The position numbers were made by a program, and so were the translations under genes. A stretch of DNA of 23,679 nt from a virus (lineage: Duplodnaviria; Heunggongvirae; Uroviricota; Caudoviricetes): the IMG/VR virus record IMGVR_UViG_2671180884_000031; one strand, 5' to 3'. The notes under the pieces are model-generated. The model had not been told where the DNA came from. It ran no database searches and saw nothing but the letters and a program-made list of their open reading frames with translations. This document shows, one piece after another, positions 1,208 to 20,767 of the stretch; within the stretch, counting starts at the first letter, position 1, and each line of letters opens with the position of its first letter.

Positions 1208-2488
1208 TTAATTTTTCATTGCTTCGTTATGGGGCATGGTTGGGGCAAACTCGCTTAACTGTGTATTTAACAAAGCTACCTGTGCATTATTGTTTTCAGA
1301 CATCCATTTTCCGTATACCTGAAATACCATTTGCGCATCTGCATGGCCCATCTGGTTTGCTATAAATGCCGGGTTAGCACCAGCTGTCAGCGACCAGCAG
1401 GCATAAGTATGTCTCGACTGATATGATTTTCGATGGCGGAGTCCGGCACGTTTTATCGCTGCGTCCCACATCTGCCTTATTGAGTCAACGGTAAAATGGT
1501 CACCATAATTTTTTACTCTCGCTGACACTTCAGGTTGAAAAACAAAGGTGCATTTTTGTTTTTCTGTTCTGCCATACTCTCTGAGGTGAACATCAATGAT
1601 ATGCTCTTTGCTCAGTCTCGTTAATGTCATCTGACTCCGGAGAGCGTCGATTGCTGGCTTAATAAGATGAATGACCCGATTGGTTCCCGCCTGTGTTTTT
1701 GGTACCGTGAAACGGTCTTTTGCTAAATTTCTCCTGATCATCATTGTTCCATTTTTCAGATCTATGTCCTCCCATCCAAGTGCACACAGCTCACCAGGGC
1801 GAACGCCAGTATAAACAGAAACACACCATAAATTTTTTGCTTGCTGATTTCTGCACGCATCGATAAGACGGATAAATTCTTCCCGCGAAAGAGGATCCGG
1901 AATGGTTCTTGATTCCTTTAATGGCGAGATCCCCTTAAACGGATTATCTGCCAGGTAACCGTTATCAACACCAAACTGGAACACGGCGTTAAGATTTGTC
2001 ATGTAATTATTTACAGTTACAGCCGATCTCCCTGGTTGTGTAACAATATAGTTACTTTTGGGGATCTGGTATCCAGTCAGTAACTCTTTACGAGCCTCCA
2101 GTAATTTTTCTTTATTAATCGATGAGGCAAGATTTTTTTCACCGATTATGCTCAGGATATTTTTGATGACGGCACGGTATGTGTTGAGTGATGTTTTGGC
2201 GACTTCAGTTTCTTTCAGTGCCAGAAATTTTTCAGCCAGTTCTTTTATGGTTAAATCTTGTCGGGCCTCACCAAATTTTTCCAGATTGCGTGAGGAGGGA
2301 AACTGTTTTGCATAGTCGAAAACACCAGTTTTTATTGCGTAACAAACAGAGGAGCGTAGTTCACCTGCAACGCGCCTGTTTTTTGCTGTGTCAGGAACCC
2401 CCAGATTTTCCCTGACTCTTACGCCTTTATAAACAAACCAGATACGTAATTTCCCTCCATGGTTTTCCACGCCTGTCGGATATTTCAT
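1208..2488 (-). CDS. Lambdoid prophage tyrosine integrase, intact (IntR/IntQ-like)
   Basis: ORF 1208..2503; N-terminus KYPTGVENHGGKLRIWF resembles the Rac IntR arm-binding region, and the C-terminus carries RPGEL, HxxRHT and a catalytic Y. Start at 2488 preferred because an AGAGAAG SD-like sequence precedes it; 2503 is the alternative. Confidence 0.8.
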   Translation of the reverse strand: MKYPTGVENHGGKLRIWFVYKGVRVRENLGVPDTAKNRRVAGELRSSVCYAIKTGVFDYAKQFPSSRNLEKFGEARQDLTIKELAEKFLALKETEVAKTSLNTYRAVIKNILSIIGEKNLASSINKEKLLEARKELLTGYQIPKSNYIVTQPGRSAVTVNNYMTNLNAVFQFGVDNGYLADNPFKGISPLKESRTIPDPLSREEFIRLIDACRNQQAKNLWCVSVYTGVRPGELCALGWEDIDLKNGTMMIRRNLAKDRFTVPKTQAGTNRVIHLIKPAIDALRSQMTLTRLSKEHIIDVHLREYGRTEKQKCTFVFQPEVSARVKNYGDHFTVDSIRQMWDAAIKRAGLRHRKSYQSRHTYACWSLTAGANPAFIANQMGHADAQMVFQVYGKWMSENNNAQVALLNTQLSEFAPTMPHNEAMKN

Positions 2489-2522
2489 TTCAACTTCTCT
2501 CATTAGTTAGTGTGGCTTTTAG

Positions 2523-2774
2523 TCAAGTAAGATGACGTCTTGGTCTCGCTGATGCCTGGCGCTCAATCCAGCGATCAATTTCTTCCAGGTTGTAAAAGCA
2601 TGGACTGTTATCCCATGGCATACCGTCATGAGCGACATGCTTATATTCCCTTCCTTCCATAAACGATTTTTCCCGGGCCTTTTTTAACGTACCTTTTTTT
2701 ATTCCTTTCAGCGCAATTAACTGCTCTTCGGATACCCATTTGCCGGGAGAGACAATCATGATTACTTCGCTCAT
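2523..2774 (-). CDS. Excisionase-like small protein
   Basis: 83-aa basic ORF directly upstream of and co-oriented with the integrase; position and size are typical of lambdoid xis. Confidence 0.55.
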   Translation of the reverse strand: MSEVIMIVSPGKWVSEEQLIALKGIKKGTLKKAREKSFMEGREYKHVAHDGMPWDNSPCFYNLEEIDRWIERQASARPRRHLT

Positions 2775-2846: not shown

Positions 2847-5324
2847 TTAAGAATCAGCCTGACTCGGGATCAGTTTTTGCCAGATAACTGAAACGTATTT
2901 TGCCTGGTAACGGGCGTCATCAAGTGCATTATGGCGCTCACCTTCGAATGGAATAGCCGTTCTGGCATCGAAGTCTATGGCTTTCCCCAGCTCAACGATT
3001 GTGCGTACATCGCGATCGTTGTAGTAACGCCACGGGCAGGGGATCCCCTGCCGCTCGTATGAACGGCGCAAAATCGTGTTGTCGAAGTTGGCTCCATTTC
3101 CCCAGACCTGAACAAAAAATTCACCGGAGTTTTCGTCGATAAATTCCCGCAATTGTAACAGTGCATCATCTAACGGGATTTCATCGGTCATAATGGCAGA
3201 TTGCGCTTCGCGTGATTGCTTAAGCCACCATTTAATGGTGTCCCGATCAATGACTCCGCCAGCAGTTTCCAGATCGATAGTCTTACTAAATTCCGGTCCC
3301 ATATCTCCGGTTTGCGGATCGAAAAATATTGCACCTATTGAGATGATCGGGGCATCAGGATTTTTTCCCATGGTTTCAAGGTCGATCATTAGATGGTCAC
3401 ACGTCCTGCTGGTGGATGTGATTTCGTGATGACCGTTCACCTTAATTGAGCGATCTGCCGTCTCGCCAGTTTCATTATCGCTATCGTGATGCTGATTGCC
3501 GCCAGTGTTCTCCTTGTGTGGATGTTCAGCGCCTTCCATTTCCTCCGGATCATCTTCCTGAACTTCAACCTGATACTCTTCATCGAATGTTTCCTGGTAT
3601 GTTGCGTCGCCCATCACCGCGCCACAATCAGGGCAGTTGCCGCCGCCGGTCTGACCGCAGGCGGTGCAGACTTTTTCCACTTCCTGTTGCGCCACTGGTT
3701 CAGGCTGTTTCGTTTCTGGCTCGTTTTGTAACGCATTTGGGCTGTTTTGTTCCGCTTTTTGGTAGTTCCGTTCCGATTCATGCTGGTTCTGGTTCACAGA
3801 ATCGCGGGTCTGGATCCCCTTAACCCATTTCGGATCATTCGGGTCACTAATCCCTTCAACAAATTCACCACGTGATGCAGCAAGCAACTTATCGGCGTCA
3901 GGCTGGCTGATATTGGCTGCCTGCATAATTTTGTTTACTTCGTCAGCGGTAACTTTTATCGGCTCTGGTTGTTCTGAATCTTCAGCGGTATCTACATTTT
4001 GCGGTAAGCCCGTGTATGTGCCATTTTTTCGGGCAAAATATTCTTCTTTTGTGATTTCAGTGGCGCCAGCAGCCAGTGCCTTATCCAGACCAGAAAGTTT
4101 GTTTGCGCGACCGTATTTTTCTCCGTCCTTATCTGCGAAGAGGAAATAGAACGGCCCCTCACGCTCTACAGATGGTTCAGCTTCCGGCGCGGTTTCATTT
4201 TTTGGGATATCAGATACCTCGGTTTCCACTGCATCAGTTTGTGTTTCTGATGACTGGAGAACATCAACAGTGCCCGGGTCTGTTTCTTCATTCTCAAACA
4301 CGCCCTTTGTCGTCAGGTATTCGCAGATATATTTGTTCAGTGCTACGGGATCTTTGTGAATGTCGATCGGACGCTCACGGACAAGGCCAAAAATAGTTTG
4401 GCGGTCGTAGCGAAGGGCATCAGGCTGTTTGCGCATTGATGCCGAGATACGCTTCCAGTCTTCGCGGTCGTTGTCGATAACTTCTTTTTTTGCCCAGCGA
4501 TGGATGCTGCCGTCAATGTTTCCGGCATCCACATCACCAGGCCAGAGAGCGTAGGCCAGTTCGTCATCCAGTGTTTTCCATGTCTGCTTGTATTCGCGAT
4601 GAATGGCAGCAATGACCGGGCTGATTTTTCCTGTTGAATTTTCAGTGTACTGTTGATTGGCTTTGGCGCGGGCGAGATCAACAACAGACGTGTATTTTCC
4701 GGTTTCCTTGCGTTCACCTTCGCGACGTTTTTTCCAGATGCGCATCTCTGCCTGAATTTCGGGCCATTTAGCACCAGGAATACATTTATGCTTAACCCAC
4801 CCAATGGCGTGCAACTTAAGCTCCGGATACATGGCGTTAACTTCTGGCATTTTCATCAACGCTTCAACGATATGTCCGTCGAATGTTGCCATGTCTTCCT
4901 GCAACAATTCCTGTGCGCTAATAACCATATCAACGGTGATGTTTTCACATGTGTCGAACTTAACCATGACAGCGTTCTGTACTTCAGGGGCCAGCTTGTC
5001 AAAAGTGACGTTCATCGGATCGGATTCAGTCTCAACCGGGACAAAAGAAGCAGACTCCTCATCCCAGCGGTTTTCCTGCATATATTCAGCATCCCATGAA
5101 TCGAGGGCAGGGCGGGGTATGCCAGGTTTATCCTCGCAGACAATAAATTTATAAGCGCAGTCCTGAGCAGCCGGATAATGTTCCAGGAACTGCCAGTGAA
5201 ATTTTGCTCGAGCACGGCGTTCGTCGCCAGCTTCAATGGCTGTGGCTACAGCCACAGCCACAGCGCCTTCTTCCCTTGTTGCCAGTTCGTCAGGAATAGC
5301 GGCGCAAATAAAGACTTTACTCAT
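2847..5324 (-). CDS. Prophage exonuclease (RecE/exodeoxyribonuclease VIII-like) with C-terminal DEDDh 3'-5' exonuclease domain
   Basis: 825-aa ORF; the C-terminal ~200 aa carry MIDLETMG (Exo I) and HNALDDARYQAKY (Exo III, H-x4-D); an acidic Q/E-rich middle and a CTACGQTGGGNCPDCG zinc-ribbon-like motif precede it. Sits where K-12 has the ydfE fragment. Confidence 0.6.
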   Translation of the reverse strand: MSKVFICAAIPDELATREEGAVAVAVATAIEAGDERRARAKFHWQFLEHYPAAQDCAYKFIVCEDKPGIPRPALDSWDAEYMQENRWDEESASFVPVETESDPMNVTFDKLAPEVQNAVMVKFDTCENITVDMVISAQELLQEDMATFDGHIVEALMKMPEVNAMYPELKLHAIGWVKHKCIPGAKWPEIQAEMRIWKKRREGERKETGKYTSVVDLARAKANQQYTENSTGKISPVIAAIHREYKQTWKTLDDELAYALWPGDVDAGNIDGSIHRWAKKEVIDNDREDWKRISASMRKQPDALRYDRQTIFGLVRERPIDIHKDPVALNKYICEYLTTKGVFENEETDPGTVDVLQSSETQTDAVETEVSDIPKNETAPEAEPSVEREGPFYFLFADKDGEKYGRANKLSGLDKALAAGATEITKEEYFARKNGTYTGLPQNVDTAEDSEQPEPIKVTADEVNKIMQAANISQPDADKLLAASRGEFVEGISDPNDPKWVKGIQTRDSVNQNQHESERNYQKAEQNSPNALQNEPETKQPEPVAQQEVEKVCTACGQTGGGNCPDCGAVMGDATYQETFDEEYQVEVQEDDPEEMEGAEHPHKENTGGNQHHDSDNETGETADRSIKVNGHHEITSTSRTCDHLMIDLETMGKNPDAPIISIGAIFFDPQTGDMGPEFSKTIDLETAGGVIDRDTIKWWLKQSREAQSAIMTDEIPLDDALLQLREFIDENSGEFFVQVWGNGANFDNTILRRSYERQGIPCPWRYYNDRDVRTIVELGKAIDFDARTAIPFEGERHNALDDARYQAKYVSVIWQKLIPSQADS

Positions 5325-5417: not shown

Positions 5418-5609
5418 TTAAAGACCTGCCGGGATTTCGATATTATCCTGGTGAATAACTTTATCGACCGGGTAACAGTTACCGGGAATTTTCTGTTCGG
5501 TTGCTGCAGTCATACACTCCTGCATTGTCCTGTGAACACTGACTGCAATATCAACTGGCTCTCCGGAAACAAGAAAAACTGTCAGAACAAGCGCAAATGC
5601 TGAATTCAT
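5418..5609 (-). CDS. ydfD: Small lysis/membrane protein YdfD (63 aa)
   Basis: Internal-Met product MNSAFALVLTVFLVSGEPVD... matches recalled YdfD; ATGA start/stop overlap with dicB. Confidence 0.75.
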   Translation of the reverse strand: MNSAFALVLTVFLVSGEPVDIAVSVHRTMQECMTAATEQKIPGNCYPVDKVIHQDNIEIPAGL

Positions 5610-5794
5610 TGTGCACATCCTTTTGGCATCAGACGTAAACGAGCCAGCATTGAAACAATGCATATTTTATTTAATAGCTCCCGTTCTTGTTTTCTCTTGT
5701 TAATGGCATCTTCAGTAAATACAGGGTTACTGATAGTGACACCAATTTCAAAACAACCTTCAGACGTATTAACGTTTGGTAATAACGTTTTCAT
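5606..5794 (-). CDS. dicB: Cell-division inhibitor DicB (62 aa)
   Basis: MKTLLPNVNTSEGCFEIGVTISNPVFTEDAINKRKQERELLNKICIVSMLARLRLMPKGCAQ from ATG at 5794 with a GAGGA SD upstream; matches recalled DicB. Confidence 0.85.
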   Translation of the reverse strand: MKTLLPNVNTSEGCFEIGVTISNPVFTEDAINKRKQERELLNKICIVSMLARLRLMPKGCAQ

Positions 5795-5967
5795 TATCGC
5801 GTCCTCAACAATGAATTTTGTGATGCAGTGCCTGGTGCCTCCAGGTGACGTTAACCAGTTAACAATTAACGCCGGATACAGAGAATCCACCCATAACACT
5901 GTTTTTGGTTTTAACTGTTCCGCGTGCGCTTAGCCGCATTCACCGCATCACAAAATTCACTTTAAAA

Positions 5968-6021
5968 ACGGCGGTAGAGCAGTCACGGAGTAAAACTGAT
6001 ACTGCCAAACGTCACCAGAAA
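5968..6021 (-). ncRNA. dicF: DicF small regulatory RNA (ftsZ-targeting antisense sRNA)
   Basis: Minus strand reads TTTCTGGTGACGTTTGGCAGTATCAGTTTTACTCCGTGACTGCTCTACCGCCGTTTTT, near-identical to recalled K-12 DicF, ending in a GC stem plus T-run; lies ~170 bp upstream of dicB as in K-12. Confidence 0.8.
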
Positions 6022-6280: not shown

Positions 6281-6856
6281 TTAAGGATTCATTAAGCAAT
6301 GTCGCAACCACCAATAAATCCGCTTAAGAACATGAAAATTGATTACTGGTATAAAGCGCTTACAGTTGTTGGCGCTGCGTTGTTTGTCTTTAATGGAACG
6401 TCTTTTTTTGACAGATATCCCGTTGTTCCATTGGGTTTTTTGTCCTCCGGCATCTTTTTTATTGGTTTGGGGGAGTGGATTAATCACCCTCTCAAGGTGA
6501 GATTTATTGGTCCTGGAGTTTGGACTCGTGGATATAATCGTTCTTCGTGCGCACTCGGTATCATCTTCGACATACTTGGTTGTTTCCTGATTGTTACAGG
6601 AGTCGTCAAGTTCTTCTGATGTAAAACCGCAAATGGGGCACGTAACGGGAATTTTGAAAAGCGTTTCTCCGGGTTCCAGAACAAAATTTTCTGCGGTCTG
6701 ATTTTGCTTCTCATATTTGTGCTCCGCGTCATTGTGAGAGCACATTCTTATTCTGAGTGCCTGTTTAAACTCACTGAAGCTGAGAGCTTCTTCGCCTTCG
6801 GCAAGGCCTTCGAAGTATTCTTCGTAAGCCTTTTCCATGATTGTGTCGAAATCCAT
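6281..6856 (-). CDS. YdfB-like protein; 3' extent uncertain (the part at 6281..6619 may be an antisense shadow of the plus-strand membrane ORF)
   Basis: ATG at 6856 sits one nt after the ydfA stop; MDFDTIMEKAYEEYFEGLAEGEEALSFSEFKQAL resembles recalled YdfB (42 aa in K-12), but the frame stays open for 191 codons and includes a CPICGF motif. Confidence 0.35.
   Translation of the reverse strand: MDFDTIMEKAYEEYFEGLAEGEEALSFSEFKQALRIRMCSHNDAEHKYEKQNQTAENFVLEPGETLFKIPVTCPICGFTSEELDDSCNNQETTKYVEDDTECARRTIISTSPNSRTNKSHLERVINPLPQTNKKDAGGQKTQWNNGISVKKRRSIKDKQRSANNCKRFIPVINFHVLKRIYWWLRHCLMNP
6332..6619 (+). CDS. Hypothetical small membrane protein (three predicted TM segments)
   Basis: ORF 6299..6619; from the internal Met: MKIDYWYKALTVVGAALFVFNG...VVPLGFLSSGIFFIGLGEWI...SSCALGIIFDILGCFLIVTGVV. 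Convergent with, and codon-aligned antisense to, the minus-strand ORF 6281..6898, so only one of the two is likely real. Confidence 0.4.
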   Translation: MKIDYWYKALTVVGAALFVFNGTSFFDRYPVVPLGFLSSGIFFIGLGEWINHPLKVRFIGPGVWTRGYNRSSCALGIIFDILGCFLIVTGVVKFF

Positions 6857-6857
6857 A

Positions 6858-7013
6858 TCACTCACCTGAGTTTCTTTCCAGCCAGCGACGGGCACCATTT
6901 TCGGTTTTAAACGTTTTGCTTTTGGTATACGTCATCGCGGTGAACGTGCCGTCCTGGTTGGGGAACACGCCACATACCAGAGATTCGCTGTTGCCAAGAT
7001 CGATAGTATCCAT
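6858..7013 (-). CDS. ydfA: Small prophage protein YdfA (51 aa)
   Basis: MDTIDLGNSESLVCGVFPNQDGTFTAMTYTKSKTFKTENGARRWLERNSGE from ATG at 7013; matches recalled YdfA. Confidence 0.75.
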   Translation of the reverse strand: MDTIDLGNSESLVCGVFPNQDGTFTAMTYTKSKTFKTENGARRWLERNSGE

Positions 7014-7157: not shown

Positions 7158-7188
7158 AAAAGATAACTCATTGATGATGTTATCTTTT
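7158..7188 (-). terminator. Candidate intrinsic terminator after dicA
   Basis: Perfect 10-bp inverted repeat AAAAGATAAC / GTTATCTTTT with an 11-nt loop, overlapping the dicA stop codon and followed on the minus strand by an A/T-rich tract. Confidence 0.4.
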
Positions 7189-7587
7189 ATTTGTCCGCTG
7201 ACGGGCTTTTAGTAATTCTTCAAAGAGTTTATTGAAATTTTTTACTCGAGCTCGCATTTCGGCGAGCTGGGTATCCTGTTCTGATTCTGGCAGTGCATTA
7301 AACAGCTCAAGGAGCTCTAGTTCTTTGGGGGCTAAGGCAACCGGCTTCTCAACAGGTGGTGTTGGTTGCTTGTCTTCATCGCCAAATAGAATCCATGTTG
7401 GTGAGCATTGCAATACTTTGCTGAGGGCAAAAAGGTTCTTCCCTGTAGGTTCACTATCATCCCGTTCCCATTGTGATACAGACACATGGGAGATTTTCAG
7501 GGCTTTAGCAAGAGACCTTTGGGTGTGTTTGAGGTTTTTCCGACGATACCTAATGCGTTCGCCGATGGTTAAATTTTTTGTATCCAT
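7180..7587 (-). CDS. dicA: HTH-XRE repressor DicA (135 aa)
   Basis: MDTKNLTIGERIRYRRKNLKHTQRSLAKALKISHVSVSQWERDDSEPTGKNLFALSKVLQCSPTWILFGDE...; XRE-type helix-turn-helix; matches recalled DicA. Confidence 0.85.
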   Translation of the reverse strand: MDTKNLTIGERIRYRRKNLKHTQRSLAKALKISHVSVSQWERDDSEPTGKNLFALSKVLQCSPTWILFGDEDKQPTPPVEKPVALAPKELELLELFNALPESEQDTQLAEMRARVKNFNKLFEELLKARQRTNKR

Positions 7588-7589
7588 AG

Positions 7590-7603
7590 TTAGCTAATGC
7601 TAA
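7590..7603. promoter_or_regulatory. Candidate DicA operator in the dicA-dicC divergent promoter region
   Basis: TTAGCTAATGCTAA (TTAG-N6-CTAA) starts 3 bp upstream of the dicA start codon. Confidence 0.45.
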
Positions 7604-7638
7604 ATCGTATTGACTATGTTTTTGTTAACATCTATTTT

Positions 7639-7654
7639 GTTAGTCATGACTAAC
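7639..7654. promoter_or_regulatory. Candidate DicA operator, perfect 16-bp palindrome
   Basis: GTTAGTCATGACTAAC is its own reverse complement; located 17 bp upstream of dicC. Confidence 0.55.
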
Positions 7655-7670
7655 ATCTAAGGTGTTTTAA

Positions 7671-7901
7671 ATGCTTAAAACTGACGCTCTTTTGTATTTC
7701 GGTTCAAAAACAAAACTTGCACAAGCAGCAGGTATTCGTTTGGCTTCGCTTTATAGCTGGAAAGGGGATTTAGTTCCCGAAGGTCGCGCGATGCGTCTAC
7801 AGGAGGCATCTGGCGGGGAGCTTCAGTATGATCCCAAAGTTTATGACGAATATCGTAAGACGAAGCGGGCGGGGCGGTTGAACAATGAAAATCACTCCTG
7901 A
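7671..7901 (+). CDS. dicC: Cro-like regulator DicC (76 aa)
   Basis: MLKTDALLYFGSKTKLAQAAGIRLASLYSWKGDLVPEGRAMRLQEASGGELQYDPKVYDEYRKTKRAGRL...; divergent from dicA. Confidence 0.8.
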   Translation: MLKTDALLYFGSKTKLAQAAGIRLASLYSWKGDLVPEGRAMRLQEASGGELQYDPKVYDEYRKTKRAGRLNNENHS

Positions 7902-9794: not shown

Positions 9795-9897
9795 TGTTAG
9801 GTATTTTAGACGTTACTAGATTAAAAAGCATTAGTTCAGGAGTGAATTGACATTCTCATTTTTCATGGCACAGGGTAGATCTGGCGTGGTTGTCCGC

Positions 9898-9918
9898 TTT
9901 GTGCCAGGAGCGGACGTT
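9898..9918. repeat. att-like repeat copy A (left boundary of cargo module 1)
   Basis: TGTGCCAGGAGCGGACGT (9900..9917) recurs exactly at 12452..12469 and in degenerate form at ~13998..14015. Confidence 0.5.
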
Positions 9919-10007
9919 GCTAATGGCATGATGTATGAACCAATGGAGAACCGATCATCTATACACATATAGATCCCTAACGAAAATATTGTTTTCACTA
10001 GCCCTGT

Positions 10008-10044
10008 AATGGAAGCGTTAATTTTATATTCTAACGCTTCCATT
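10008..10044. repeat. Perfect 13-bp inverted repeat (hairpin) downstream of the SDR gene
   Basis: AATGGAAGCGTTA (10008..10020), 11-nt loop, TAACGCTTCCATT (10032..10044); no flanking U-tract on either strand. Confidence 0.4.
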
Positions 10045-10096
10045 GAGCCTACCACTTTGGCAAAGCAATTCTTACACTTCAAAATAATGTGCTTTT

Positions 10097-10843
10097 TTAT
10101 TCAGCTAAATAACCGCCATCGATTGGATAAACGCCTCCGGTACAGAATGTAGAACTGTCTGACAGCAAGAACAATATGAAGTCTGCTATTTCCTGCATTT
10201 TTGCCATCCTTTTCATAGGGTGGCTATTTGCGAAACTACTTACAATATTTTCAGGGAACTCACTCATTCTTTGGGTTTGGACATAGCCCGGAGCGACTGC
10301 ATTGATTCGAATGCCTTGACATGCAAACTCTAGCGCTGCGGTTTGGGTTAAACCGATTATACCATGTTTAGCCACGGTGTAAGGTGCTAATCCAGGAATG
10401 CCAACCAGACCATTTACTGCAGATAAATTAACTATAGATCCACCAAACTTCATCATCTGGGGTATTTCATATTTTAGGCAGTGAAAAACGCCGCTCAATG
10501 AGGTAGCAATAACCTTATCCCAGTTTTCAACTGTCTGCTCTGTTATATTTTTACCATGTTCACCTGTTAAGCCTGCATTATTTACAGCATAATCAAGTCT
10601 GCCGAAATGTTTGATAACCTCATCTATCATTTGCCGTACTTGTTCGGGCTGTGACACATCACATCCGATCCCCATGGCTTGTTGTCCCTGTGAAGATAAT
10701 TGTTCCGCTTTTTGTTTAGCCTGTTCTGACGAGCGGGATACAATAACAACTTTTGCACCATGCTTATGTAATTGCTCTGCGACGGCCTCACCTATACCTG
10801 TAGTGCTTCCTGTTATAACGGCAATTTTATTCTGGAAATTCAT
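10097..10843 (-). CDS. SDR-family (short-chain dehydrogenase/reductase) oxidoreductase
   Basis: TGSTTGIG cofactor-binding motif, NNAG, catalytic YTVAKHG (YxxxK); start at ATG 10843 with a GGGGGTGG SD. Confidence 0.8.
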   Translation of the reverse strand: MNFQNKIAVITGSTTGIGEAVAEQLHKHGAKVVIVSRSSEQAKQKAEQLSSQGQQAMGIGCDVSQPEQVRQMIDEVIKHFGRLDYAVNNAGLTGEHGKNITEQTVENWDKVIATSLSGVFHCLKYEIPQMMKFGGSIVNLSAVNGLVGIPGLAPYTVAKHGIIGLTQTAALEFACQGIRINAVAPGYVQTQRMSEFPENIVSSFANSHPMKRMAKMQEIADFILFLLSDSSTFCTGGVYPIDGGYLAE

Positions 10844-10914
10844 AACCACCCCCTATGAAGTAGAATTGAGTCTTTCATCTGGGATAGTATACAAACCATC
10901 TGTGACAGTTTTTG

Positions 10915-11604
10915 TCAGTACTCTTTCCCCTCGCAGATCCCTTCTTTTATTCTCCATTTTTTCAATAAAATTGTCCTGCTTTCACTATAGTTGGAGTCAA
11001 GTTGCACAATATCTTCAATTTTGTCAGTTCTAAAATGACGAAAATCATTTCTCATCTCGCACCATGCAACCAAAAGCCAGCACGATTCCATGTATACCAA
11101 TCCGATGGGCCATATGACTCGTGAAGTGTAAGAATCTTTTTTATCACAATAATTTATTTTGATTTTCTTTCTTTTTTTTATAGCATTGCGAATGTCTTCA
11201 AAAAAAATCTCATTGTTTTCTGATGGACCGATCAGATAGGATTGACTCTCAATAAGATTTTTCAATTCACTGGGAATGACGGCGTGTATTTTCGCAAGCG
11301 CATTCTTTGCGGTAATTTTGAAATTATAATCTGTATTGTGCGATACCCAATTTAACCCAAGTGTAATAGCATTAATTTCTTCATGAGAAAGATTTAAGGG
11401 GGGCAAATGAAAGTCAGATTTAACAATATAACCAATTCCAGCACCACCTTCAATGCATACTCCTTGATGCTGCAGCGTTTTTATATCTCTGTAAAGGGAG
11501 CGTACACTTATTCCCAATCTTTCTGAGAGGATGGATGCTGTGATCGGATATCTTTGTGCCCTTAATATTTGTAGTAACTCGAGAAGTCTTTCTGTTCTAG
11601 TCAT
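10915..11604 (-). CDS. YafY-family transcriptional regulator (N-terminal HTH plus WYL-type ligand-binding domain)
   Basis: From the internal Met: MTRTERLLELLQILRAQRYPITASILSERLGISVRSLYRDIKTL..., a DeoR/YafY-type HTH followed by a WYL-like region; directly upstream of and co-oriented with the SDR gene. Confidence 0.6.
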   Translation of the reverse strand: MTRTERLLELLQILRAQRYPITASILSERLGISVRSLYRDIKTLQHQGVCIEGGAGIGYIVKSDFHLPPLNLSHEEINAITLGLNWVSHNTDYNFKITAKNALAKIHAVIPSELKNLIESQSYLIGPSENNEIFFEDIRNAIKKRKKIKINYCDKKDSYTSRVIWPIGLVYMESCWLLVAWCEMRNDFRHFRTDKIEDIVQLDSNYSESRTILLKKWRIKEGICEGKEY

Positions 11605-11822
11605 GTTGATAAATCCATTTTGAGGCGATTTCTTAAAGCATCTGTTAGATAAACATATTAGTACAAAGCAAGTGTACATGGCTAAGCTGAACTGCTACCG
11701 ATGATTAATACAGCGCTATGTTCGTAATGCGTACATAAGCGGTGATCATGAGTGTAAACATCCGCTTTTCGCTTATAAGGGACAACCATACTCAAATTTC
11801 CCACATTGCAGGAGATTTGAGT

Positions 11823-12425
11823 ATGAATACGTCACCGTGGAACAAAGACCGTATCATCGGCCAAAAAAGACCACTTCAGATATCTCATATCTGGGGGATC
11901 CGAATCCGGCTTGAACTGGAAGGTAAAACGCGCGATTTAGCTCTGTTCAATATGGCCCTGGACAGTAAGCTTCGAGGCTGTGATCTGGTCAAACTCAAAG
12001 TATCGGATGTGGCATATGGTAGTTCGGTTTCAAGCAGAGCAACGGTGTTGCAACAGAAAACCGGTAGCCCTGTGCAATTCGAGATAACCAAAGGGACAAG
12101 AGAAGCTGTTGCTGCATTGATAAAGCTTGGCAATTTGCACAGTAAAGACTTCTTGTTTCGGTCTCGGGTCGGAACTAACCAGCACATTTCAACCCGGCAA
12201 TACAACCGAATCTTTCATGGGTGGATAGAAAAACTTGGTCTCGAAGGTTCACTTTACAGCACACATTCAATGAGAAGAACAAAACCTTACCTGATCTACA
12301 AGAAAACCAAGAATCTCCGGGTGATCCAACTTCTGTTGGGTCATAAGAAACTGGAAAGCACAGTCCGTTATCTGGGCATTGAAGTCGATGATGCGTTAGA
12401 GATCTCTGAATCGATTGAAGTCTAA
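11823..12425 (+). CDS. Short tyrosine site-specific recombinase (~200 aa, phage-integrase family catalytic domain)
   Basis: AGGAG SD before ATG 11823; C-terminal HSMRRT...LLGHKKLESTVRYL carries the R/H-x-x-R ... Y catalytic signature. Confidence 0.65.
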   Translation: MNTSPWNKDRIIGQKRPLQISHIWGIRIRLELEGKTRDLALFNMALDSKLRGCDLVKLKVSDVAYGSSVSSRATVLQQKTGSPVQFEITKGTREAVAALIKLGNLHSKDFLFRSRVGTNQHISTRQYNRIFHGWIEKLGLEGSLYSTHSMRRTKPYLIYKKTKNLRVIQLLLGHKKLESTVRYLGIEVDDALEISESIEV

Positions 12426-12433
12426 GGTTGTCA

Positions 12434-12469
12434 GGGCTGCAACAGCAGCCCTGTGCCAGGAGCGGACGT
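12434..12469. repeat. att-like repeat copy B: hairpin GGGCTGC-AACA-GCAGCCC plus TGTGCCAGGAGCGGACGT core
   Basis: Begins 9 nt after the recombinase stop codon; hairpin plus a core identical to copy A. Confidence 0.5.
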
Positions 12470-12576
12470 CTAGTTCGCTGAACCACAAAAAGTCGTTTCT
12501 AGTTATATTACTGGCTCATTAGTATCTTTATGCGATAATATTTCATACAACCAAAATTATGATGAAGGGAGTTCAA

Positions 12577-13698
12577 ATGGCAATTACGGTCTATTCTCGT
12601 ACATTCAAAAAGGAATTGGACATGGTTCAATTGTTAAACCATTACTCATCAGATAACGCACTCAATTTCAGTGATTTCAAGGAATTTGTTGCCTTTGATG
12701 CAGAGTGCCCAATTTGCAATGTAAGCGGTGCGATTGTTGTTTCAGAAGGTTATTCGAAAAGAACAAATAAGATAGTCAGCCAATCTCATTTTGCGTTTAG
12801 AACAAAAGACGGAACTGATGCACACAAAGTATTTTGCGATCATTACAGTGGTGATGATAAGCAAATAGATTCATCAAGGGATGGTTTTATAAAATTCGGC
12901 ACCTCAGGTTCTGAGATTACAAGTATAATTCGCGAGCTTGTATGTAGAGGTATTGAACATGATGAGTTCAATCAGGAAGATATTCGAAACATGCGGCAAT
13001 GGTTTACAGAATTACGCCAGTCAGGCACTTTTTCTGTTAACTATAGCCCTCACATGATCAATCTAATAAGGGCCAGCATGTATTCCCGTAAGGGAGAAAG
13101 TAAATATATTGTAGATGAAGAGAGGAAAAATAAATCTTGGTTTGATATAAACGATGAAGTGTATCGTTCGTTAAGATTCAAATATCCATCATTGATGATC
13201 GACATGACTAATGAAAATAATTCTGTTTTCTATAATCTTGTGAATAGTACCACATTTACTAAACAAGCACATCGATTAGTAGCACGAGATCGAGGTTATC
13301 AGGTTTATGATAGAAGGTTGCTTAAAGAAAAATATGAAGCAACGATAAGAGTTGCACAAAAAATAACCAGGCATCACGAATTTCTTTTTAGGAAAATCAG
13401 GGGTATATCCGCTGTTAAAAAAAACAACCCCCTTTTGGCTGTATCTGCCTTGCTTCTTTTTGTCTCGGACTGGAATGAAACAACTGCAATCAACAAATTC
13501 ATCAAATTGTGTGGTGTAGGGAAATCTAAAAATAATGATGAGGGGAATGTAATTGGCTTAAATCCCTTTATTCATTACGATGTCTGGAATGTTATTCATC
13601 AACTTAAGGATTTAATGGTTACACTTCCAGACTTCTCAAATCTTGATGAAGAATTTGACAGAGAAAAATCCAGATTAATTGAACTTTACAAGCTCTAA
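12577..13698 (+). CDS. Hypothetical protein, 373 aa, AT-rich cargo gene; candidate accessory/anti-phage function
   Basis: GAAGGGAG SD 5 nt before ATG 12577; N-terminal CPIC ... HKVFCDH cluster suggests a metal-binding site; no family recognised by eye. Confidence 0.7.
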   Translation: MAITVYSRTFKKELDMVQLLNHYSSDNALNFSDFKEFVAFDAECPICNVSGAIVVSEGYSKRTNKIVSQSHFAFRTKDGTDAHKVFCDHYSGDDKQIDSSRDGFIKFGTSGSEITSIIRELVCRGIEHDEFNQEDIRNMRQWFTELRQSGTFSVNYSPHMINLIRASMYSRKGESKYIVDEERKNKSWFDINDEVYRSLRFKYPSLMIDMTNENNSVFYNLVNSTTFTKQAHRLVARDRGYQVYDRRLLKEKYEATIRVAQKITRHHEFLFRKIRGISAVKKNNPLLAVSALLLFVSDWNETTAINKFIKLCGVGKSKNNDEGNVIGLNPFIHYDVWNVIHQLKDLMVTLPDFSNLDEEFDREKSRLIELYKL

Positions 13699-13740
13699 CA
13701 TAAACTAGCAGGCTGCGTATACAGTCTGCTAATTTTCATA

Positions 13741-13970
13741 GTAAAGACTTCATGCTTCAGTCTCGAGTTGGAGCTATCCGTCACACATCACCCAGGCAAT
13801 TCAACCGAAATTTTTCATGGGGGGTAGAGAAGTTTTGTCTCGAAGATTTGCTTTACAGCATACTAATCATTGAACCTCTGTTGAACCATAAGAAACTGGC
13901 AAGCACAATCCGTTGCTTGGGCATTGAATTCGACGATGCGTCGTATAGCTCTGACTTGAACAAAACATAA
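13741..13970 (+). pseudogene. Degenerate duplicate of the tyrosine recombinase 3' end (remnant)
   Basis: About 75-80% nucleotide identity to 12142..12425 with an internal deletion; translation ...SRVGAIRHTSPRQFNRNF...LLNHKKLASTIRCLGIEFDDA parallels the recombinase C-terminus. Confidence 0.6.
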
Positions 13971-13978
13971 GGTTTTTA

Positions 13979-14015
13979 GGGCTGCAACAGCACCTCTGTG
14001 TCATAGGCGGAAGTT
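13979..14015. repeat. att-like repeat copy C (degenerate)
   Basis: GGGCTGCAACAGCACCTCTGTGTCATAGGCGGAAGT parallels copy B in the same position relative to the recombinase remnant. Confidence 0.45.
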
Positions 14016-14311
14016 AACAAACATTAAAATCTCTAAATCTGTAGGGATCAGACTCCTTCTATAAAAGGATACTGTTCATATCCTTAGTTGTATATAGGTG
14101 TGTTTAGAGTATTAGGATGCTAGTTTTGAAAATTAATTTTTTAAACATATTGAATTTTTTAAGAATTGGGAATAGTGTATAGCTTTGTCATGGCGGATTT
14201 TTTCTCTTCAAGTATTTATTTGAACACTACTTCTTGCACCTGCAAGGTTACAATATCGTGTAAATTTGTTCACAAAGACATAGATTATAATTTTTACTTA
14301 AAGGAAATTCA

Positions 14312-15565
14312 ATGTCAAAAAATCTCCCGGTTTTATTAAGCTCGCCATCAACAACTAATTTTCCTGCAACAGTTAATACTGAAATAGAATTCCTTTCGCA
14401 AGCTAGAAAGTTGTTAGATTCTGGCTTCCCTGATCATGCTCTTTTAGATATATGGAATGCATCCATTCATAATCTTAGGCGGCGAATTGAGGCTTATGGT
14501 TTAGACTTATTCCTTTCCGCAATAAAGGATGATAGTGGTCGTAAAAAATATGATAAAGATGGTGAAACAATAAACGAGAGATGGTCAGGTGTAGATGATT
14601 TAGTGCTAATAAGTGGAGCCACCAAATTAGGGGTTCTGCATAAGAAAGCTGGAAAATCATTAGAAATGATCAATTGGATGAGAAACCATGCCTCTCCAGC
14701 CCATGCAAGTGATAGTAAAGTAGAGTCTGAGGATGTGTTTGCTTTGGCTCTTATGCTCCAGAAGAATTTATTCGAATCTGATATGCCAGACCCTGGACAT
14801 TCGCCATCTGGATTATTTGAACCCATAAAAAAATCTGAACTATCAATTGAGAGCATAGACTTACTTAAAGATCAAATAAGAGCATTTAAGCAAGCTGATA
14901 TAAGAATAACATTTGGATTTTTATTGGATTTAATAACTAAGGGGGAAAATCCTGCTTATGTTAATGCTAGCAAGTTGTTTGAACAAGCATGGGAAAGATC
15001 TAATGATGACCTTAAAAAAACAGCGGGGGAAAGATATCACTCATTTATGCTGGAGCCCGAATCGGATACAAGTGAGGATAAAGGAGCAAAAATAAGAATT
15101 TTAGAGACTTTAGTAAAAGTTAATGGTGTGAAATTTATACCTGATGCTGCTAGGGCAAGTTTATACAGACATGCGGTTAAACAGCTAGCTAAAGCTAAGG
15201 ATACATCTTACGGCTGGAATGATGAAGAAAGAGCAGCCAAGGCACTTATACAATTTGGACCTCATGTTCCATCTATTGCTTTTGAAGATGTATATCAAGA
15301 AATACTTACTGTTTGGGTGGGGAATTACTGGGGAAGATCTGATGCACATTTAGTACTTCAACCATTTTTAGATGTGTTAAATAGTAATCAATTGATGGCT
15401 CTCTCACGGTTGTTCGTGGAGAATGAAAGAGCAAATTCAGAACTGGTGTCATCAAGGCCCAAAAGAAGAGCAATAGAATTACTTGAGATAATAAAAAATA
15501 ATCTAACAATTCAAGCAAGCATTGATGAAATTGATAGGATTATTTCTGAAATTGATAAAATGTAA
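14312..15565 (+). CDS. Hypothetical protein, 417 aa, with HEPN-like R-x6-H motif; candidate abortive-infection/defence protein
   Basis: AAGGAAA SD before ATG 14312; helical N-terminal region with WMRNHASPAH (R-x6-H) resembling the HEPN active-site motif; AT-rich; own terminator downstream. Confidence 0.7.
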   Translation: MSKNLPVLLSSPSTTNFPATVNTEIEFLSQARKLLDSGFPDHALLDIWNASIHNLRRRIEAYGLDLFLSAIKDDSGRKKYDKDGETINERWSGVDDLVLISGATKLGVLHKKAGKSLEMINWMRNHASPAHASDSKVESEDVFALALMLQKNLFESDMPDPGHSPSGLFEPIKKSELSIESIDLLKDQIRAFKQADIRITFGFLLDLITKGENPAYVNASKLFEQAWERSNDDLKKTAGERYHSFMLEPESDTSEDKGAKIRILETLVKVNGVKFIPDAARASLYRHAVKQLAKAKDTSYGWNDEERAAKALIQFGPHVPSIAFEDVYQEILTVWVGNYWGRSDAHLVLQPFLDVLNSNQLMALSRLFVENERANSELVSSRPKRRAIELLEIIKNNLTIQASIDEIDRIISEIDKM

Positions 15566-15577
15566 TTTATTTGCAAT

Positions 15578-15610
15578 TAAGCCATGCTTTTTAGGTGGCT
15601 TATTTTTTTT
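15578..15610 (+). terminator. Rho-independent terminator after the 417-aa gene
   Basis: AAGCCA ... TGGCTT stem followed by an 8-T run, 13 nt after the stop codon. Confidence 0.55.

Positions 15611-19739: not shown

Positions 19740-20767
<1,028 letters not shown>

What the first reader, a model, noticed from the sequence alone, without database searches (positions are those of the whole stretch)
2847..5324. Exonuclease with an acidic low-complexity centre, a zinc ribbon and a DnaQ-like domain
The C-terminal domain has DEDDh motifs (DxE in MIDLETMG and H-x4-D in HNALDDARYQ) rather than the lambda-Exo-type fold I associate with Rac RecE. A Cys4 ribbon-like motif (CTACGQTGGGNCPDCG) and a long Q/E/D-rich linker precede it. 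No RecT/Bet-like annealase gene lies next to it in this window.
Basis: partly seen in the sequence, partly recalled or inferred. Interest (0 to 1): 0.35.

Follow-up and report, generated by a model that had tools for sequence, protein, structure and literature searches.

The report
Prophage RecE-like protein with DnaQ-type exonuclease
This is the intact form of the E. coli Qin-prophage gene ydfE: a common, already catalogued but never tested phage protein that keeps the middle of the RecE recombination protein and carries a DnaQ-type 3'-to-5' exonuclease where RecE has its 5'-to-3' nuclease.

Summary
ORF 2847-5324 (- strand, 825 aa) ends in an intact DEDDh exonuclease domain (Pfam Rv2179c-like, E 2.4e-67). 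Its closest solved structure is T4 DexA. It has a conserved CxxC-x7-CxxC motif, disordered acidic linkers, and no annealase gene nearby.

The window is an E. coli Qin-type lambdoid prophage beside rspB. The gene is the intact form of K-12 ydfE, which IS2 cuts. It lies in the early-left operon: dicA, dicF, dicB, ydfD, exonuclease, xis, int. It matches in 4800 of 5426 complete E. coli genomes and is nearly identical in phage Tritos.

Residues 264-627, including the Cys4 motif, are homologous to Rac RecE. Only the nuclease cassette differs. Relatives combine two alternative N-terminal modules with four alternative C-termini: DEDDh, PD-(D/E)xK, a Rad52-like annealase, and an unassigned tail.

Two 2025 papers already catalogue it. 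One lists this exact accession as a DexA homologue. The other makes Tritos the prototype of a nuclease-only, Chi-rich recombination module.

The most likely function is a metal-dependent 3'-to-5' DNA exonuclease made early in lytic growth. It probably trims DNA ends for host RecBCD/RecA, but that role is inferred. It is known, ordinary and biochemically untested.

The parts
2847..5324 (-). Whole gene: 825-aa exonuclease, the intact ydfE (RefSeq WP_000048364.1, named 'exonuclease' or '3'-5' exonuclease')
   Evidence: ORF list. 100% DNA match to E. coli 2018-166 with that annotation. PHROG 2082 matches end to end. dN/dS is 0.17-0.27 overall.
5031..5324 (-). D1, aa 1-98: alpha/beta domain, first part of the YdfE_N-type N-terminal module
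   Evidence: AF2 block pLDDT mostly about 80. The source database lists PF27430 and PF27432 for close homologues, and names them YdfE_N and YdfE_C for a relative. dN/dS for aa 1-207 is 0.06-0.09. No significant PDB fold match was found for the homologous region of P0129.
4704..5018 (-). D2, aa 103-207: helical domain of the N-terminal module
   Evidence: AF2 block pLDDT about 90. PHROG 5943 covers aa 1-259.
4287..4607 (-). D3, aa 240-346: helical domain shared with RecE (RecE about 278-345)
   Evidence: AF2 block pLDDT above 90. BLASTP alignment to RecE. dN/dS about 0.1.
4167..4286 (-). Acidic disordered linker 1, aa 347-386
   Evidence: pLDDT below 50. Net charge about -10. dN/dS 0.7-1.45, close to neutral.
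4005..4166 (-). D4, aa 387-440: small beta-beta-alpha-beta-alpha domain, also present in the annealase-fused relatives
   Evidence: AF2 block pLDDT 84-94. dN/dS 0.02-0.08. Matches P0129 376-429.
3452..3899 (-). Patch homologous to recE at the DNA level (aa 476-625 against RecE 454-589). It ends where the nuclease cassette begins.
   Evidence: blastn 78% identity over 448 nt. megablast reported 86% over part of it (H24).
3621..3668 (-). Cys4 motif CxxC-x7-CxxC, aa 553-568: zinc-ribbon-like knuckle shared with RecE
   Evidence: Sequence. Invariant in 12 of 12 homologues that contain the region. Aligned with the RecE motif CNACGQTGGDNCPDCG. Not confidently folded by AF2.
3405..3824 (-). Disordered Q/N-rich then acidic linker 2, aa 501-640; it contains the Cys4 motif
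   Evidence: pLDDT 30-54. Composition. dN/dS for aa 541-640 is 0.3-0.5.
2862..3404 (-). DEDDh (DnaQ-like, Rv2179c/DexA-type) 3'-5' exonuclease domain, aa 641-821. Catalytic residues are D648, E650, D748, H798 and D803.
   Evidence: Pfam PF16473, E 2.4e-67. PDB sequence hit 8kel, E 1.6e-6. Foldseek gives 8kel (DexA), E 9e-8, then RNase T, Orn/REXO2 and Cap18. Alignment with DexA.
3408..3415 (+). Chi site (GCTGGTGG) inside the gene, on the opposite strand; one of 4 top-strand Chi sites in the window
   Evidence: 4 sites on the + strand and 0 on the - strand. 0.44 expected from shuffles, and 0 of 100 shuffles reach 4.
2523..2774 (-). Excisionase gene immediately downstream
   Evidence: Pfam DUF1233 putative excisionase. 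RefSeq annotation.
1208..2503 (-). Integrase gene. rspB (1-1020, + strand) marks the host junction.
   Evidence: Pfam Arm-DNA-bind_2 plus Phage_integrase. RefSeq annotation.
5418..5899 (-). ydfD (DUF1482) and dicB, immediately upstream in the same orientation
   Evidence: Pfam. RefSeq annotation.
5969..6020 (-). DicF sRNA, same operon
   Evidence: Rfam RF00039, 62.2 bits, above the gathering score.
7180..7901 (.). dicA (- strand) and dicC (+ strand): the repressor/Cro-like pair that heads the early-left operon
   Evidence: ORFs. RefSeq annotation.

Best explanation
The gene encodes a modular early-left-operon protein of a Qin/Tritos-type lambdoid phage.

Shown here:
- It has a YdfE_N-type N-terminal module.
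- It has a RecE-homologous centre containing a conserved Cys4 knuckle and acidic disordered linkers.
- It has an intact DEDDh (DnaQ-like) domain in the place where RecE carries its PD-(D/E)xK 5'-3' nuclease.

[quoted passage not shown] It probably works as a dimer with a composite active site, as in T4 DexA, RNase T and Orn. Y768 aligns with DexA W152.

Inferred from context:
- The gene is repressed in the lysogen by the DicA/CI-type repressor.
- On induction it is made together with DicF, DicB, YdfD, Xis and Int.
- Its substrate is DNA rather than RNA.

More speculative: the phage has no annealase, no SSB and no RecBCD inhibitor, but carries Chi sites in a single orientation. The exonuclease may therefore trim 3' tails to blunt, RecBCD-accessible ends, so that host RecBCD-Chi-RecA carries out the recombination the phage needs, instead of a phage exonuclease/annealase pair.
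For: Domain identity: Pfam PF16473 E 2.4e-67, sequence match to DexA 8kel, Foldseek 8kel E 9e-8 followed by RNase T, Orn and Cap18, catalytic residues aligned.

RecE-type centre: BLASTP E 1e-63 over aa 264-627 and a 78% identical DNA patch ending at the nuclease boundary.

The same non-nuclease part is used by DNA-recombination enzymes. Homologues carry PD-(D/E)xK (P0131, Pfam DUF3799) or a Rad52-like annealase (P0129: Foldseek top 5 hits are human RAD52, E 5e-6 to 2e-5; BFVD hits are Rad52/Erf/SSAP; 6 of 10 members give a weak Pfam Rad52_Rad22 match).

Conserved position: dicB, ydfD, exonuclease, xis, int in four E. coli genomes at different att sites and in phage Tritos. A Rac-type prophage carries a RecE_N + DEDDh version with recT absent.

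Purifying selection acts on every folded domain.

Chi: 4 top-strand and 0 bottom-strand sites in the window against 0.44 expected; 9 and 2 in Tritos against 3.9 and 1.2 expected.

Literature: T4 DexA and its E. coli homologue EcD are 3'-5' DNA exonucleases, and this exact accession is in that paper's homologue table (PMC12153337). Tritos is the prototype of a nuclease-only Rec module with many Chi sites (PMC12315714, Table 1).
Against: No biochemical or genetic test of this protein or of any full-length homologue was found. A search for ydfE gave no functional paper.

The best Pfam family is named after an exoribonuclease, so RNA is not excluded as substrate.

According to PMC12315714, DnaQ-like 3'-5' exonucleases usually inhibit recombination. 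The same paper does not count sporadic DnaQ-type nuclease genes near int as Rec-module members.

The Chi density of the window (1 per 5.9 kb) is only about that of the host chromosome, and could partly reflect amelioration of an old prophage.

The AF2 model is moderate (mean pLDDT 67.8; DEDDh blocks 54-88) because the alignment is shallow.

The functions of the N-terminal module and the Cys4 motif are unknown. The RecE N-terminus was still described as of unknown function in 2023 (PMC11611040).
Confidence: 0.55

Rival explanations
1. It is a prophage-encoded defence or superinfection-exclusion nuclease of the HREX type. As reported for the E. coli DexA homologue EcD, it would spare unmodified host DNA and digest hydroxymethylcytosine-containing DNA of incoming T-even phages.
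For: PMC12153337 reports that plasmid-borne EcD protects E. coli from T4 and digests the T4 genome. Its Table S3 lists WP_000048364.1, the protein of this window, among bacterial DexA homologues. From my own knowledge (not checked here), DicB in the same operon is reported to protect against some phages.
Against: The gene lies in the repressor-controlled early-left operon, next to xis and int, and not in a lysogen-expressed moron position. Of the two DexA residues proposed to read 5hmC, W152 is Tyr here (Y768) and D169 lies in a DexA-specific insertion that this protein lacks. EcD is a short stand-alone protein that starts at the DEDDh motif (primers), whereas this protein carries 640 extra residues. 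PADLOC returns only a generic CRISPR-associated DEDDh model at E 1.7e-5.
Confidence: 0.12
2. It is a 3'-5' exoribonuclease like the founding member Rv2179c/RNase AS. It would trim or degrade RNA, for example host transcripts or processing intermediates of the dicBF transcript.
For: The best Pfam family is '3'-5' exoribonuclease Rv2179c-like'. RefSeq often names homologues '3'-5' exoribonuclease'. Structural neighbours include RNase T and Orn/REXO2. The gene is co-oriented with the DicF sRNA, which is matured by processing (the processing is my own knowledge).
Against: The nearest characterised phage relative, DexA, and EcD act on DNA. The rest of the protein is shared with DNA-recombination proteins, namely RecE and Rad52-like annealase fusions. 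The gene occupies the slot where related prophages carry recE-recT.
Confidence: 0.13
3. It scavenges nucleotides, as T4 DexA does, by degrading oligonucleotides or host DNA fragments to mononucleotides during lytic growth.
For: Homology to DexA, whose accepted roles include host DNA scavenging (abstract of PMC12153337). Early lytic expression is inferred from gene order.
Against: From my own knowledge, lambdoid temperate phages are not known to degrade host DNA. No endonuclease partner is present in the operon. Scavenging does not explain the large conserved RecE-type N-terminal part, which is under stronger constraint than the nuclease domain.
Confidence: 0.08
4. It is a decaying relic of a defective prophage with no present function.
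For: In K-12 the gene is cut by IS2 after nt 773 (H22 and H23). IS insertions and truncated copies occur in other strains (H11 and H19-H21).
Against: 3537 genomes keep at least 80% of the gene. dN/dS is 0.02-0.34 in all folded domains. All catalytic residues are intact. A nearly identical copy sits in the complete genome record of phage Tritos.
Confidence: 0.03

Closest known systems
Exonuclease of Escherichia phage Tritos (OV696610, TRITO_27), prototype of the nuclease-only Rec module type of Zheng et al., Genome Res 2025 (PMC12315714)
   Same: Nearly identical gene: 823 against 825 aa, dN 0.002. Same operon order: cI, dicF, dicB, ydfD, exonuclease, xis, int. No annealase, SSB or anti-RecBCD gene. 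Chi sites biased to the top strand.
   Different: Essentially nothing at the sequence level. The window copy is in a resident Qin-site prophage that carries an extra low-GC cargo island. The held text of the paper does not say what type of nuclease the Tritos protein is, and its supplement is not held.
Rac prophage RecE (exodeoxyribonuclease VIII)
   Same: Homologous central region (aa 264-627 against RecE 278-591), including the Cys4 motif and the acidic linker. Same position in the early-left operon, upstream of xis-int. Similar size: 825 against 866 aa.
   Different: RecE has the PF06630 N-terminus and a PD-(D/E)xK (PF12684) 5'-3' nuclease, and is followed by recT. This protein has a YdfE_N-type N-terminus, a DEDDh 3'-5' nuclease and no recT. 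The NCBIfam RecE model scores 290.9 bits against a cutoff of 1269.
T4 DexA (PDB 8KEL) and its E. coli homologue EcD ('HREX', Kang et al., NAR 2025, PMC12153337)
   Same: Same DEDDh subfamily with conserved catalytic residues. The exact accession WP_000048364.1 is in that paper's homologue list.
   Different: DexA (227 aa) is a stand-alone protein, and EcD appears to be one too, since its primers start at the DEDDh motif. Identity to DexA is about 29%. DexA-specific insertions, including the one that carries D169, are absent here, and W152 is Tyr. This protein has a 640-aa N-terminal extension that the paper does not mention.
Rv2179c / RNase AS family (Pfam PF16473)
   Same: Full-length match to the family profile, well above the curated cutoff.
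   Different: From my own knowledge, the founding member is a mycobacterial stand-alone exoribonuclease. Here the domain is the C-terminal cassette of a phage recombination-type protein, and the likely substrate is DNA.
Salmonella phage ST64B Sb30
   Same: DEDDh domain 58% identical. Same position, immediately upstream of xis-int.
   Different: Sb30 is a 189-aa stand-alone domain with no N-terminal part.

Membership tests
DEDDh / DnaQ-like 3'-5' exonucleases, Rv2179c-like subfamily (PF16473) | Exo I motif D-x-E | tested here: met
   D648 and E650 in MIDLETMG. They are in invariant columns of the alignment with DexA and Sb30.
DEDDh / DnaQ-like 3'-5' exonucleases, Rv2179c-like subfamily (PF16473) | Exo II aspartate and Exo III H-x4-D | tested here: met
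   D748 in WGNGANFD; H798 and D803 in HNALDD. They are in invariant columns of the same alignment.
DEDDh / DnaQ-like 3'-5' exonucleases, Rv2179c-like subfamily (PF16473) | Profile match above the curated threshold, and the fold | tested here: met
   226.5 bits against a cutoff of 27, profile positions 2-177 of 177. Foldseek top hits are DexA, RNase T, Orn and Cap18, probability 1.00, TM (target) 0.6-0.7.
DEDDh / DnaQ-like 3'-5' exonucleases, Rv2179c-like subfamily (PF16473) | Metal-dependent 3'-5' exonuclease activity | not testable with these tools
   Needs an enzyme assay.
RecE / exodeoxyribonuclease VIII | C-terminal PD-(D/E)xK nuclease (PF12684; structure 3H4R, from my own knowledge) | tested here: not met
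   No PF12684 hit in the target, whereas RecE gives E 1.6e-27. The C-terminus is DEDDh.
RecE / exodeoxyribonuclease VIII | N-terminal Exonuc_VIII domain (PF06630) and the NCBIfam equivalog score | tested here: not met
   No PF06630 hit. NF007259 scores 290.9 bits against a cutoff of 1269.
RecE / exodeoxyribonuclease VIII | Central region with the Cys4 motif and acidic linker | tested here: met
   BLASTP E 1e-63, aa 264-627 against RecE 278-591. DNA patch 78% identical.
RecE / exodeoxyribonuclease VIII | Adjacent partner annealase gene (recT) | tested here: not met
   xis follows directly. No SSAP family in any window ORF, and none annotated in the whole Tritos genome.
HREX / EcD-type anti-phage DexA homologues | DexA residues proposed to recognise 5hmC (W152 and D169) | tested here: not met
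   W152 aligns with Y768. D169 lies in a DexA insertion that is absent here. The alignment has only three sequences at 29% identity, so the call is approximate.
HREX / EcD-type anti-phage DexA homologues | Selective digestion of 5hmC DNA and protection against T4 | not testable with these tools
   Needs enzyme and plaque assays.
Tritos-type nuclease-only Rec module (Zheng et al. 2025) | Nuclease gene in the early-left operon with no SAP, SSB or anti-RecBCD gene | tested here: met
   Gene order and domain scans. Near identity to the Tritos gene. Table 1 of PMC12315714.
Tritos-type nuclease-only Rec module (Zheng et al. 2025) | [quoted passage not shown] | tested here: met
   4 top-strand and 0 bottom-strand sites in the 23.7-kb window; 9 and 2 in Tritos. 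The window covers only part of the prophage.
Zinc ribbon / zinc knuckle | Two CxxC pairs, conserved | tested here: met
   C553, C556, C564 and C567. Invariant in 12 of 12 homologues that contain the region.
Zinc ribbon / zinc knuckle | Folded beta-hairpin ribbon that binds zinc | tested here: inconclusive
   The AF2 model gives pLDDT 30-54 and no secondary structure there. Metal binding cannot be tested here.

The most novel reading that the evidence does not exclude
The RecE-type non-nuclease part (an N-terminal module, the shared helical domain D3 and small domain D4, with or without the Cys4/acidic linker) may be a general adaptor. It would deliver interchangeable DNA-end enzymes to one common site or partner in lambdoid phages.

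The evidence does not exclude this. All eight combinations of two N-terminal modules with four C-termini (5'-3' PD-(D/E)xK exonuclease, 3'-5' DEDDh exonuclease, Rad52-type annealase, unassigned tail) were seen among 150 representatives.

If true, the DEDDh version in this window would be a real alternative recombination strategy that works through host RecBCD and Chi. Studying it would also address the long-open question of what the dispensable N-terminal 600 residues of RecE do.
Probability: 0.3. Interest if true: 0.55.

Novelty: already known. Interest (0 to 1): 0.3.

Why it matters
This is one of the most widespread prophage genes in E. coli. It matches in 4800 of 5426 complete genomes, with up to 10 places per genome. 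It is often mislabelled 'exonuclease VIII', which implies the wrong fold and the wrong polarity.

Correct labelling matters in three ways:
- The K-12 gene ydfE is the IS2-cut N-terminal stump of this protein.
- A 2025 report of 'bacterial DexA homologues' as defence genes counted this prophage early gene without noting its context.
- The phage type that carries it has no annealase and no RecBCD inhibitor but is Chi-rich, so it is a natural system for testing how a 3'-5' exonuclease fits into RecBCD-dependent phage growth.

The side finding also matters. Sibling proteins annotated 'exonuclease' are really Rad52-like annealase fusions. That corrects the annotation of two PHROG families and bears on the unexplained N-terminal part of RecE.

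Tried and rejected
- Hidden annealase next to the gene or inside it: rejected. No SSAP family was found in any window ORF by Pfam or PHROGs. Foldseek with a homologue that carries the same N-terminal module gave no significant PDB hit other than to its own Rad52-like tail.
- C-terminus as PD-(D/E)xK: rejected.
- Known defence system: PADLOC gave only a generic DEDDh model.
- Fold of the target's own N-terminal domains: Foldseek against PDB returned only DEDDh hits in its top 50, so those folds remain unassigned.
- Sequence-only PDB searches with the class iii tail found nothing, either as a single sequence or as a profile. Only structure comparison revealed Rad52.
- Literature searches that were uninformative or badly phrased: word-start matching of 'rece' hit 'receptor'; Rv2179c plus phage, nothing relevant; ydfE, no functional study.
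- The supplement of PMC12315714 is not held. I could not confirm how that paper types the Tritos nuclease, or whether its 'RecE-2' proteins are the annealase fusions.
- The EcD sequence (HAK9828821.1) could not be retrieved. Only its primers were available.
Full report
**What is at the coordinates.** ORF 2847-5324 on the - strand is a single 825-aa reading frame with an ATG start and a GAGG about 10 nt upstream.
- MIDLETMG, aa 646-653, window 3366-3389.
- HNALDDARYQ, aa 798-807, window 2904-2933.
- CTACGQTGGGNCPDCG, aa 553-568, window 3621-3668.

The protein is strongly acidic in two stretches: about 341-400, and 561-620 with 14-15 D+E and 0-1 K+R per 40 residues. It is Q/N-rich at 501-560.

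**Where the window comes from.** The gene is 100% identical to a gene annotated 'exonuclease' (WP_000048364.1) in E. coli strain 2018-166. There it lies between the excisionase/integrase genes next to rspB and ydfD-dicB, which is the Qin prophage site. The gene order in the window is:
- rspB (1-1020, + strand), the host gene at the junction
- int (1208-2503, -)
- xis (2523-2774, -)
- the exonuclease
- ydfD and dicB (5418-5899, -)
- DicF sRNA (5969-6020, -; Rfam above gathering)
- dicA (7180-7587, -) and dicC (7671-7901, +)
- replication genes, a cargo island, hok/sok, csp genes and lysis genes

In K-12-type strains only nt 1-773 of the gene remain, followed by IS2 (H22 and H23). K-12 ydfE is therefore the N-terminal stump of this protein. 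Matching DNA is found in 4800 of 5426 complete E. coli genomes, and 3537 hold at least 80% of the gene. There is a median of 2 and up to 10 places per genome.

**The C-terminal domain.**
- Pfam gives PF16473 (Rv2179c-like 3'-5' exoribonuclease domain) over aa 644-815, covering profile positions 2-177 of 177, E 2.4e-67.
- The only PDB sequence matches are 8kel and 8ken, a 227-aa exodeoxyribonuclease, identified as T4 DexA.
- An AlphaFold2 model of the whole protein (mean pLDDT 67.8) gave Foldseek hits to DexA (E 9e-8), RNase T, Orn/REXO2, Cap18 and DnaQ domains. All had probability 1.00.
- D648, E650, D748, H798 and D803 align with the DEDDh residues of DexA and of ST64B Sb30.
- There is no PD-(D/E)xK signal. 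The NCBIfam RecE equivalog scores 290.9 bits against a cutoff of 1269.

**The rest of the protein.** BLASTP against Rac RecE (taken from locus L001) aligns aa 264-627 with RecE 278-591 (E 1e-63, 40% identity). The match is much closer over about 466-627, which holds the Cys4 motif and the acidic linker. At the DNA level, window 3452-3899 is 78% identical to recE. That homology stops at aa 625 / RecE 589, which is where the nuclease cassette begins. RecE's own Pfam domains, PF06630 at the N-terminus and PF12684 (PD-(D/E)xK) at the C-terminus, are not shared.

The AF2 model resolves these parts:
- D1 (aa 1-98, alpha/beta), D2 (103-207, helical), D3 (240-346, helical, shared with RecE) and D4 (387-440, small alpha/beta). 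Block pLDDT is about 80 for D1 and 84-94 for D2 to D4.
- Two helices at 459-500.
- Disordered stretches at 208-239, 347-386 and 501-640.

The Cys4 motif lies in the last disordered stretch and is not confidently folded (pLDDT 30-54). It is nevertheless invariant in all 12 homologues that contain the region, including distant PD-(D/E)xK-type proteins. The source database lists PF27430 and PF27432 for close homologues, and names them YdfE_N and YdfE_C for a relative. These families are newer than the local Pfam copy.

**Selection.** I compared codons between the window gene and two homologues that are 88-92% identical at the DNA level, plus Tritos:

| Region | dN/dS |
|---|---|
| D1-D2 | 0.06-0.09 |
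| D3 | about 0.1 |
| D4 | 0.02-0.08 |
| DEDDh domain | 0.12-0.34 |
| Cys4 motif + acidic linker 2 (aa 541-640) | 0.3-0.5 |
| Acidic linker 347-386 | 0.7-1.45 |

The gene is functional, and the N-terminal part is at least as constrained as the nuclease.

**Module shuffling.** An exhaustive HMMER search with aa 1-640 found only 245 clusters (at 50% identity) with E up to 0.001. I mapped domain-sized queries onto the long hits. They show two alternative N-terminal modules, the YdfE_N type and the RecE PF06630 type. They also show four alternative C-termini:
- DEDDh: the target, and P0128 with a RecE N-terminus.
- PD-(D/E)xK: RecE, and P0131 with a YdfE_N N-terminus (Pfam DUF3799).
- A roughly 300-aa tail without any Pfam hit: P0129 and about 14 others.
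- A fourth unassigned tail: P0126, P0240 and P0268.

All eight combinations occur.

**The third tail is a Rad52-like annealase.** Six of ten members give sub-threshold Pfam Rad52_Rad22 hits at the motif KKSLTDAxKKALSxLGF. An AF2 model of P0129 folds residues about 520-660 with pLDDT 85-94. Its only significant PDB matches are five human RAD52 N-terminal-domain entries (E 5e-6 to 2e-5, probability 1.00). BFVD matches include proteins named Rad52, Rad52/59/22, RAD52-like recombinase, Erf and SSAP. So the same non-nuclease part is fused in different phages to a 5'-3' exonuclease, to a 3'-5' exonuclease or to an annealase. This argues that the target acts in DNA-end metabolism rather than on RNA.

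**Context of relatives.**
- The cassette dicB, ydfD (DUF1482), exonuclease, xis, int recurs at different attachment sites in other E. coli genomes. It also recurs in the complete genome of phage Tritos, whose 823-aa protein is nearly identical.
- No annealase is annotated anywhere in Tritos.
- P0128 (RecE N-terminus + DEDDh) sits in a Rac-type prophage as kilR, ydaE, exonuclease, xis, int, with recT missing.
- P0129 (the annealase fusion) sits between a weak Gam hit and a Sipho_Gp157 gene, upstream of xis and int.
- In ST64B a stand-alone 189-aa DEDDh gene (Sb30) lies directly upstream of xis-int.

**Literature.**
- PMC11611040 (2023 review) still describes the RecE N-terminal domain as of unknown function.
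- PMC12153337 (NAR 2025) solved T4 DexA and reports that an E. coli homologue, EcD, digests 5hmC DNA and protects against T4. Its Table S3 lists WP_000048364.1 among 'bacterial DexA homologues'. The word 'prophage' does not occur in its main text.
- PMC12315714 (Genome Res 2025) surveys lambdoid recombination modules. It states that they can encode DnaQ-like 3'-5' nucleases. It makes Tritos the prototype of a class with a nuclease but no SAP, SSB or anti-RecBCD gene: 4 phages, with Chi top/bottom counts from 21/6 to 7/2. It proposes that Chi-rich lambdoids without anti-RecBCD use host RecBCD. It also mentions 'RecE-2' proteins that lack a nuclease domain and have an unknown role.
- No experimental study of ydfE or of the full-length protein was found.

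**Chi sites.** The window has 4 Chi sites, all on the + strand. That is the strand transcribed rightward through the lysis genes, so the window has the orientation of the lambda map. Shuffles predict 0.44, and 0 of 100 shuffles reach 4. One site lies inside the gene (3408-3415). Tritos has 9 top-strand and 2 bottom-strand sites, against Markov-3 expectations of 3.9 and 1.2. This fits the published class. The density in the window is, however, only about that of the host chromosome.

**Mechanism.**
- Shown: the domain composition, intact catalytic residues, conserved operon position, purifying selection, absence of an annealase, and the Chi orientation bias.
- Inferred by homology: two-metal 3'-5' hydrolysis, probably as a dimer with a composite active site. 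Y768 aligns with DexA W152, which the DexA paper equates with REXO2 Y164.
- Inferred from context: expression from the DicA/CI-repressed early-left operon on induction, and a DNA substrate.
- Speculative: trimming of 3' tails to give RecBCD-accessible ends, so that host RecBCD-Chi-RecA supplies the recombination that other lambdoids get from Exo/Bet or RecE/RecT.

**Rivals.** The rival explanations are HREX-type defence, an RNase role, nucleotide scavenging and a decaying relic. Each is scored separately in this report. The HREX reading is weakened by the operon position and by the non-conservation of the proposed 5hmC-reading residues.

**Verdict.** The observation and the interpretation are correct. 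The object is already known: it is annotated in thousands of genomes, covered by Pfam and PHROG families, and listed in two 2025 papers. No biochemical test of it was found. The points added here are:
- The centre and the Cys4 motif are RecE-homologous, and the nuclease cassette is swapped exactly at the domain boundary.
- K-12 ydfE is the stump of this protein.
- Sibling proteins annotated 'exonuclease' are Rad52-like annealase fusions.

Interest is modest at 0.3.

Noticed in passing
Related proteins P0129, P0136, P0187, P0238 and others; locus L006:5650-7986; Pectobacterium phage ZF40 gp07 (L011:2178-4343): Proteins of about 700-800 aa share the target's N-terminal part but end in a Rad52-like single-strand annealing domain, not a nuclease (Foldseek to human RAD52, E 5e-6; BFVD Rad52/Erf hits). 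They are annotated 'exonuclease' (PHROG 2489 and 7838; ZF40 gp07 'putative exonuclease'). They may be the 'RecE-2' proteins of unknown role in PMC12315714, which scores ZF40 as lacking a SAP.
   Followed up: yes
window 3408-3415, 17195-17202, 17252-17259, 20158-20165 (all + strand): Four Chi sites (GCTGGTGG), all in one orientation and none on the other strand, against 0.44 expected from shuffles. Phage Tritos has 9 and 2. This fits the Chi-rich lambdoid class without anti-RecBCD.
   Followed up: partly
window about 9800-15600: Low-GC (0.34-0.41) cargo island between the replication genes and hok/sok. It holds an SDR oxidoreductase (10097-10849, -), an HTH-WYL regulator (10915-11679, -), a short 227-aa integrase-family protein (11742-12425, +) and two proteins of 379 and 417 aa (12559-13698 and 14312-15565, +). 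The last two have no Pfam or PADLOC hit and match only PHROGs of unknown function. The island could be a moron or defence island.
   Followed up: partly
window 6281-6898 (-): A 205-aa ORF matches PHROG 35040 end to end (E 3.7e-149), but RefSeq annotates only a ydfB fragment in the identical region of strain 2018-166. It begins like YdfB and contains a CPICG motif. It may be an unannotated gene of the dicBF operon.
   Followed up: no
window 5810-5974 and L001:1613-1779: A second Qin/Rac shared DNA patch, 80% identical over 170 nt. It covers the region between dicF and dicB here and the region just upstream of kilR in Rac. This suggests that the leaders of the two cell-division-inhibitor genes are homologous.
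   Followed up: no
window 16015-16189 (+), 18083-18475 (+), 20984-21369 (+): A Sok antitoxin RNA next to hokD, and two cspA-type thermoregulator leaders in front of the prophage cold-shock genes. All are above the Rfam gathering scores.
   Followed up: no
window 17115-17708 (+): This ORF matches only the first 183 of 334 positions of PHROG 96 (HNH endonuclease / YdfU, DUF968) and then stops. The ydfU-like gene may be truncated or frameshifted in this window.
   Followed up: no
Related proteins P0126, P0240, P0268: A fourth C-terminal tail of about 210-270 aa (PHROG 26058, unknown function, no Pfam hit) is attached to the same N-terminal part. It was not modelled.
   Followed up: no
PMC12153337, Table S3: The list of 'bacterial DexA homologues' behind the proposed HREX defence includes this prophage early-operon protein (WP_000048364.1) and many neighbouring WP_0000484xx accessions. 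The main text never mentions prophages. Much of the reported 'bacterial' distribution may therefore be lambdoid prophage genes.
   Followed up: partly
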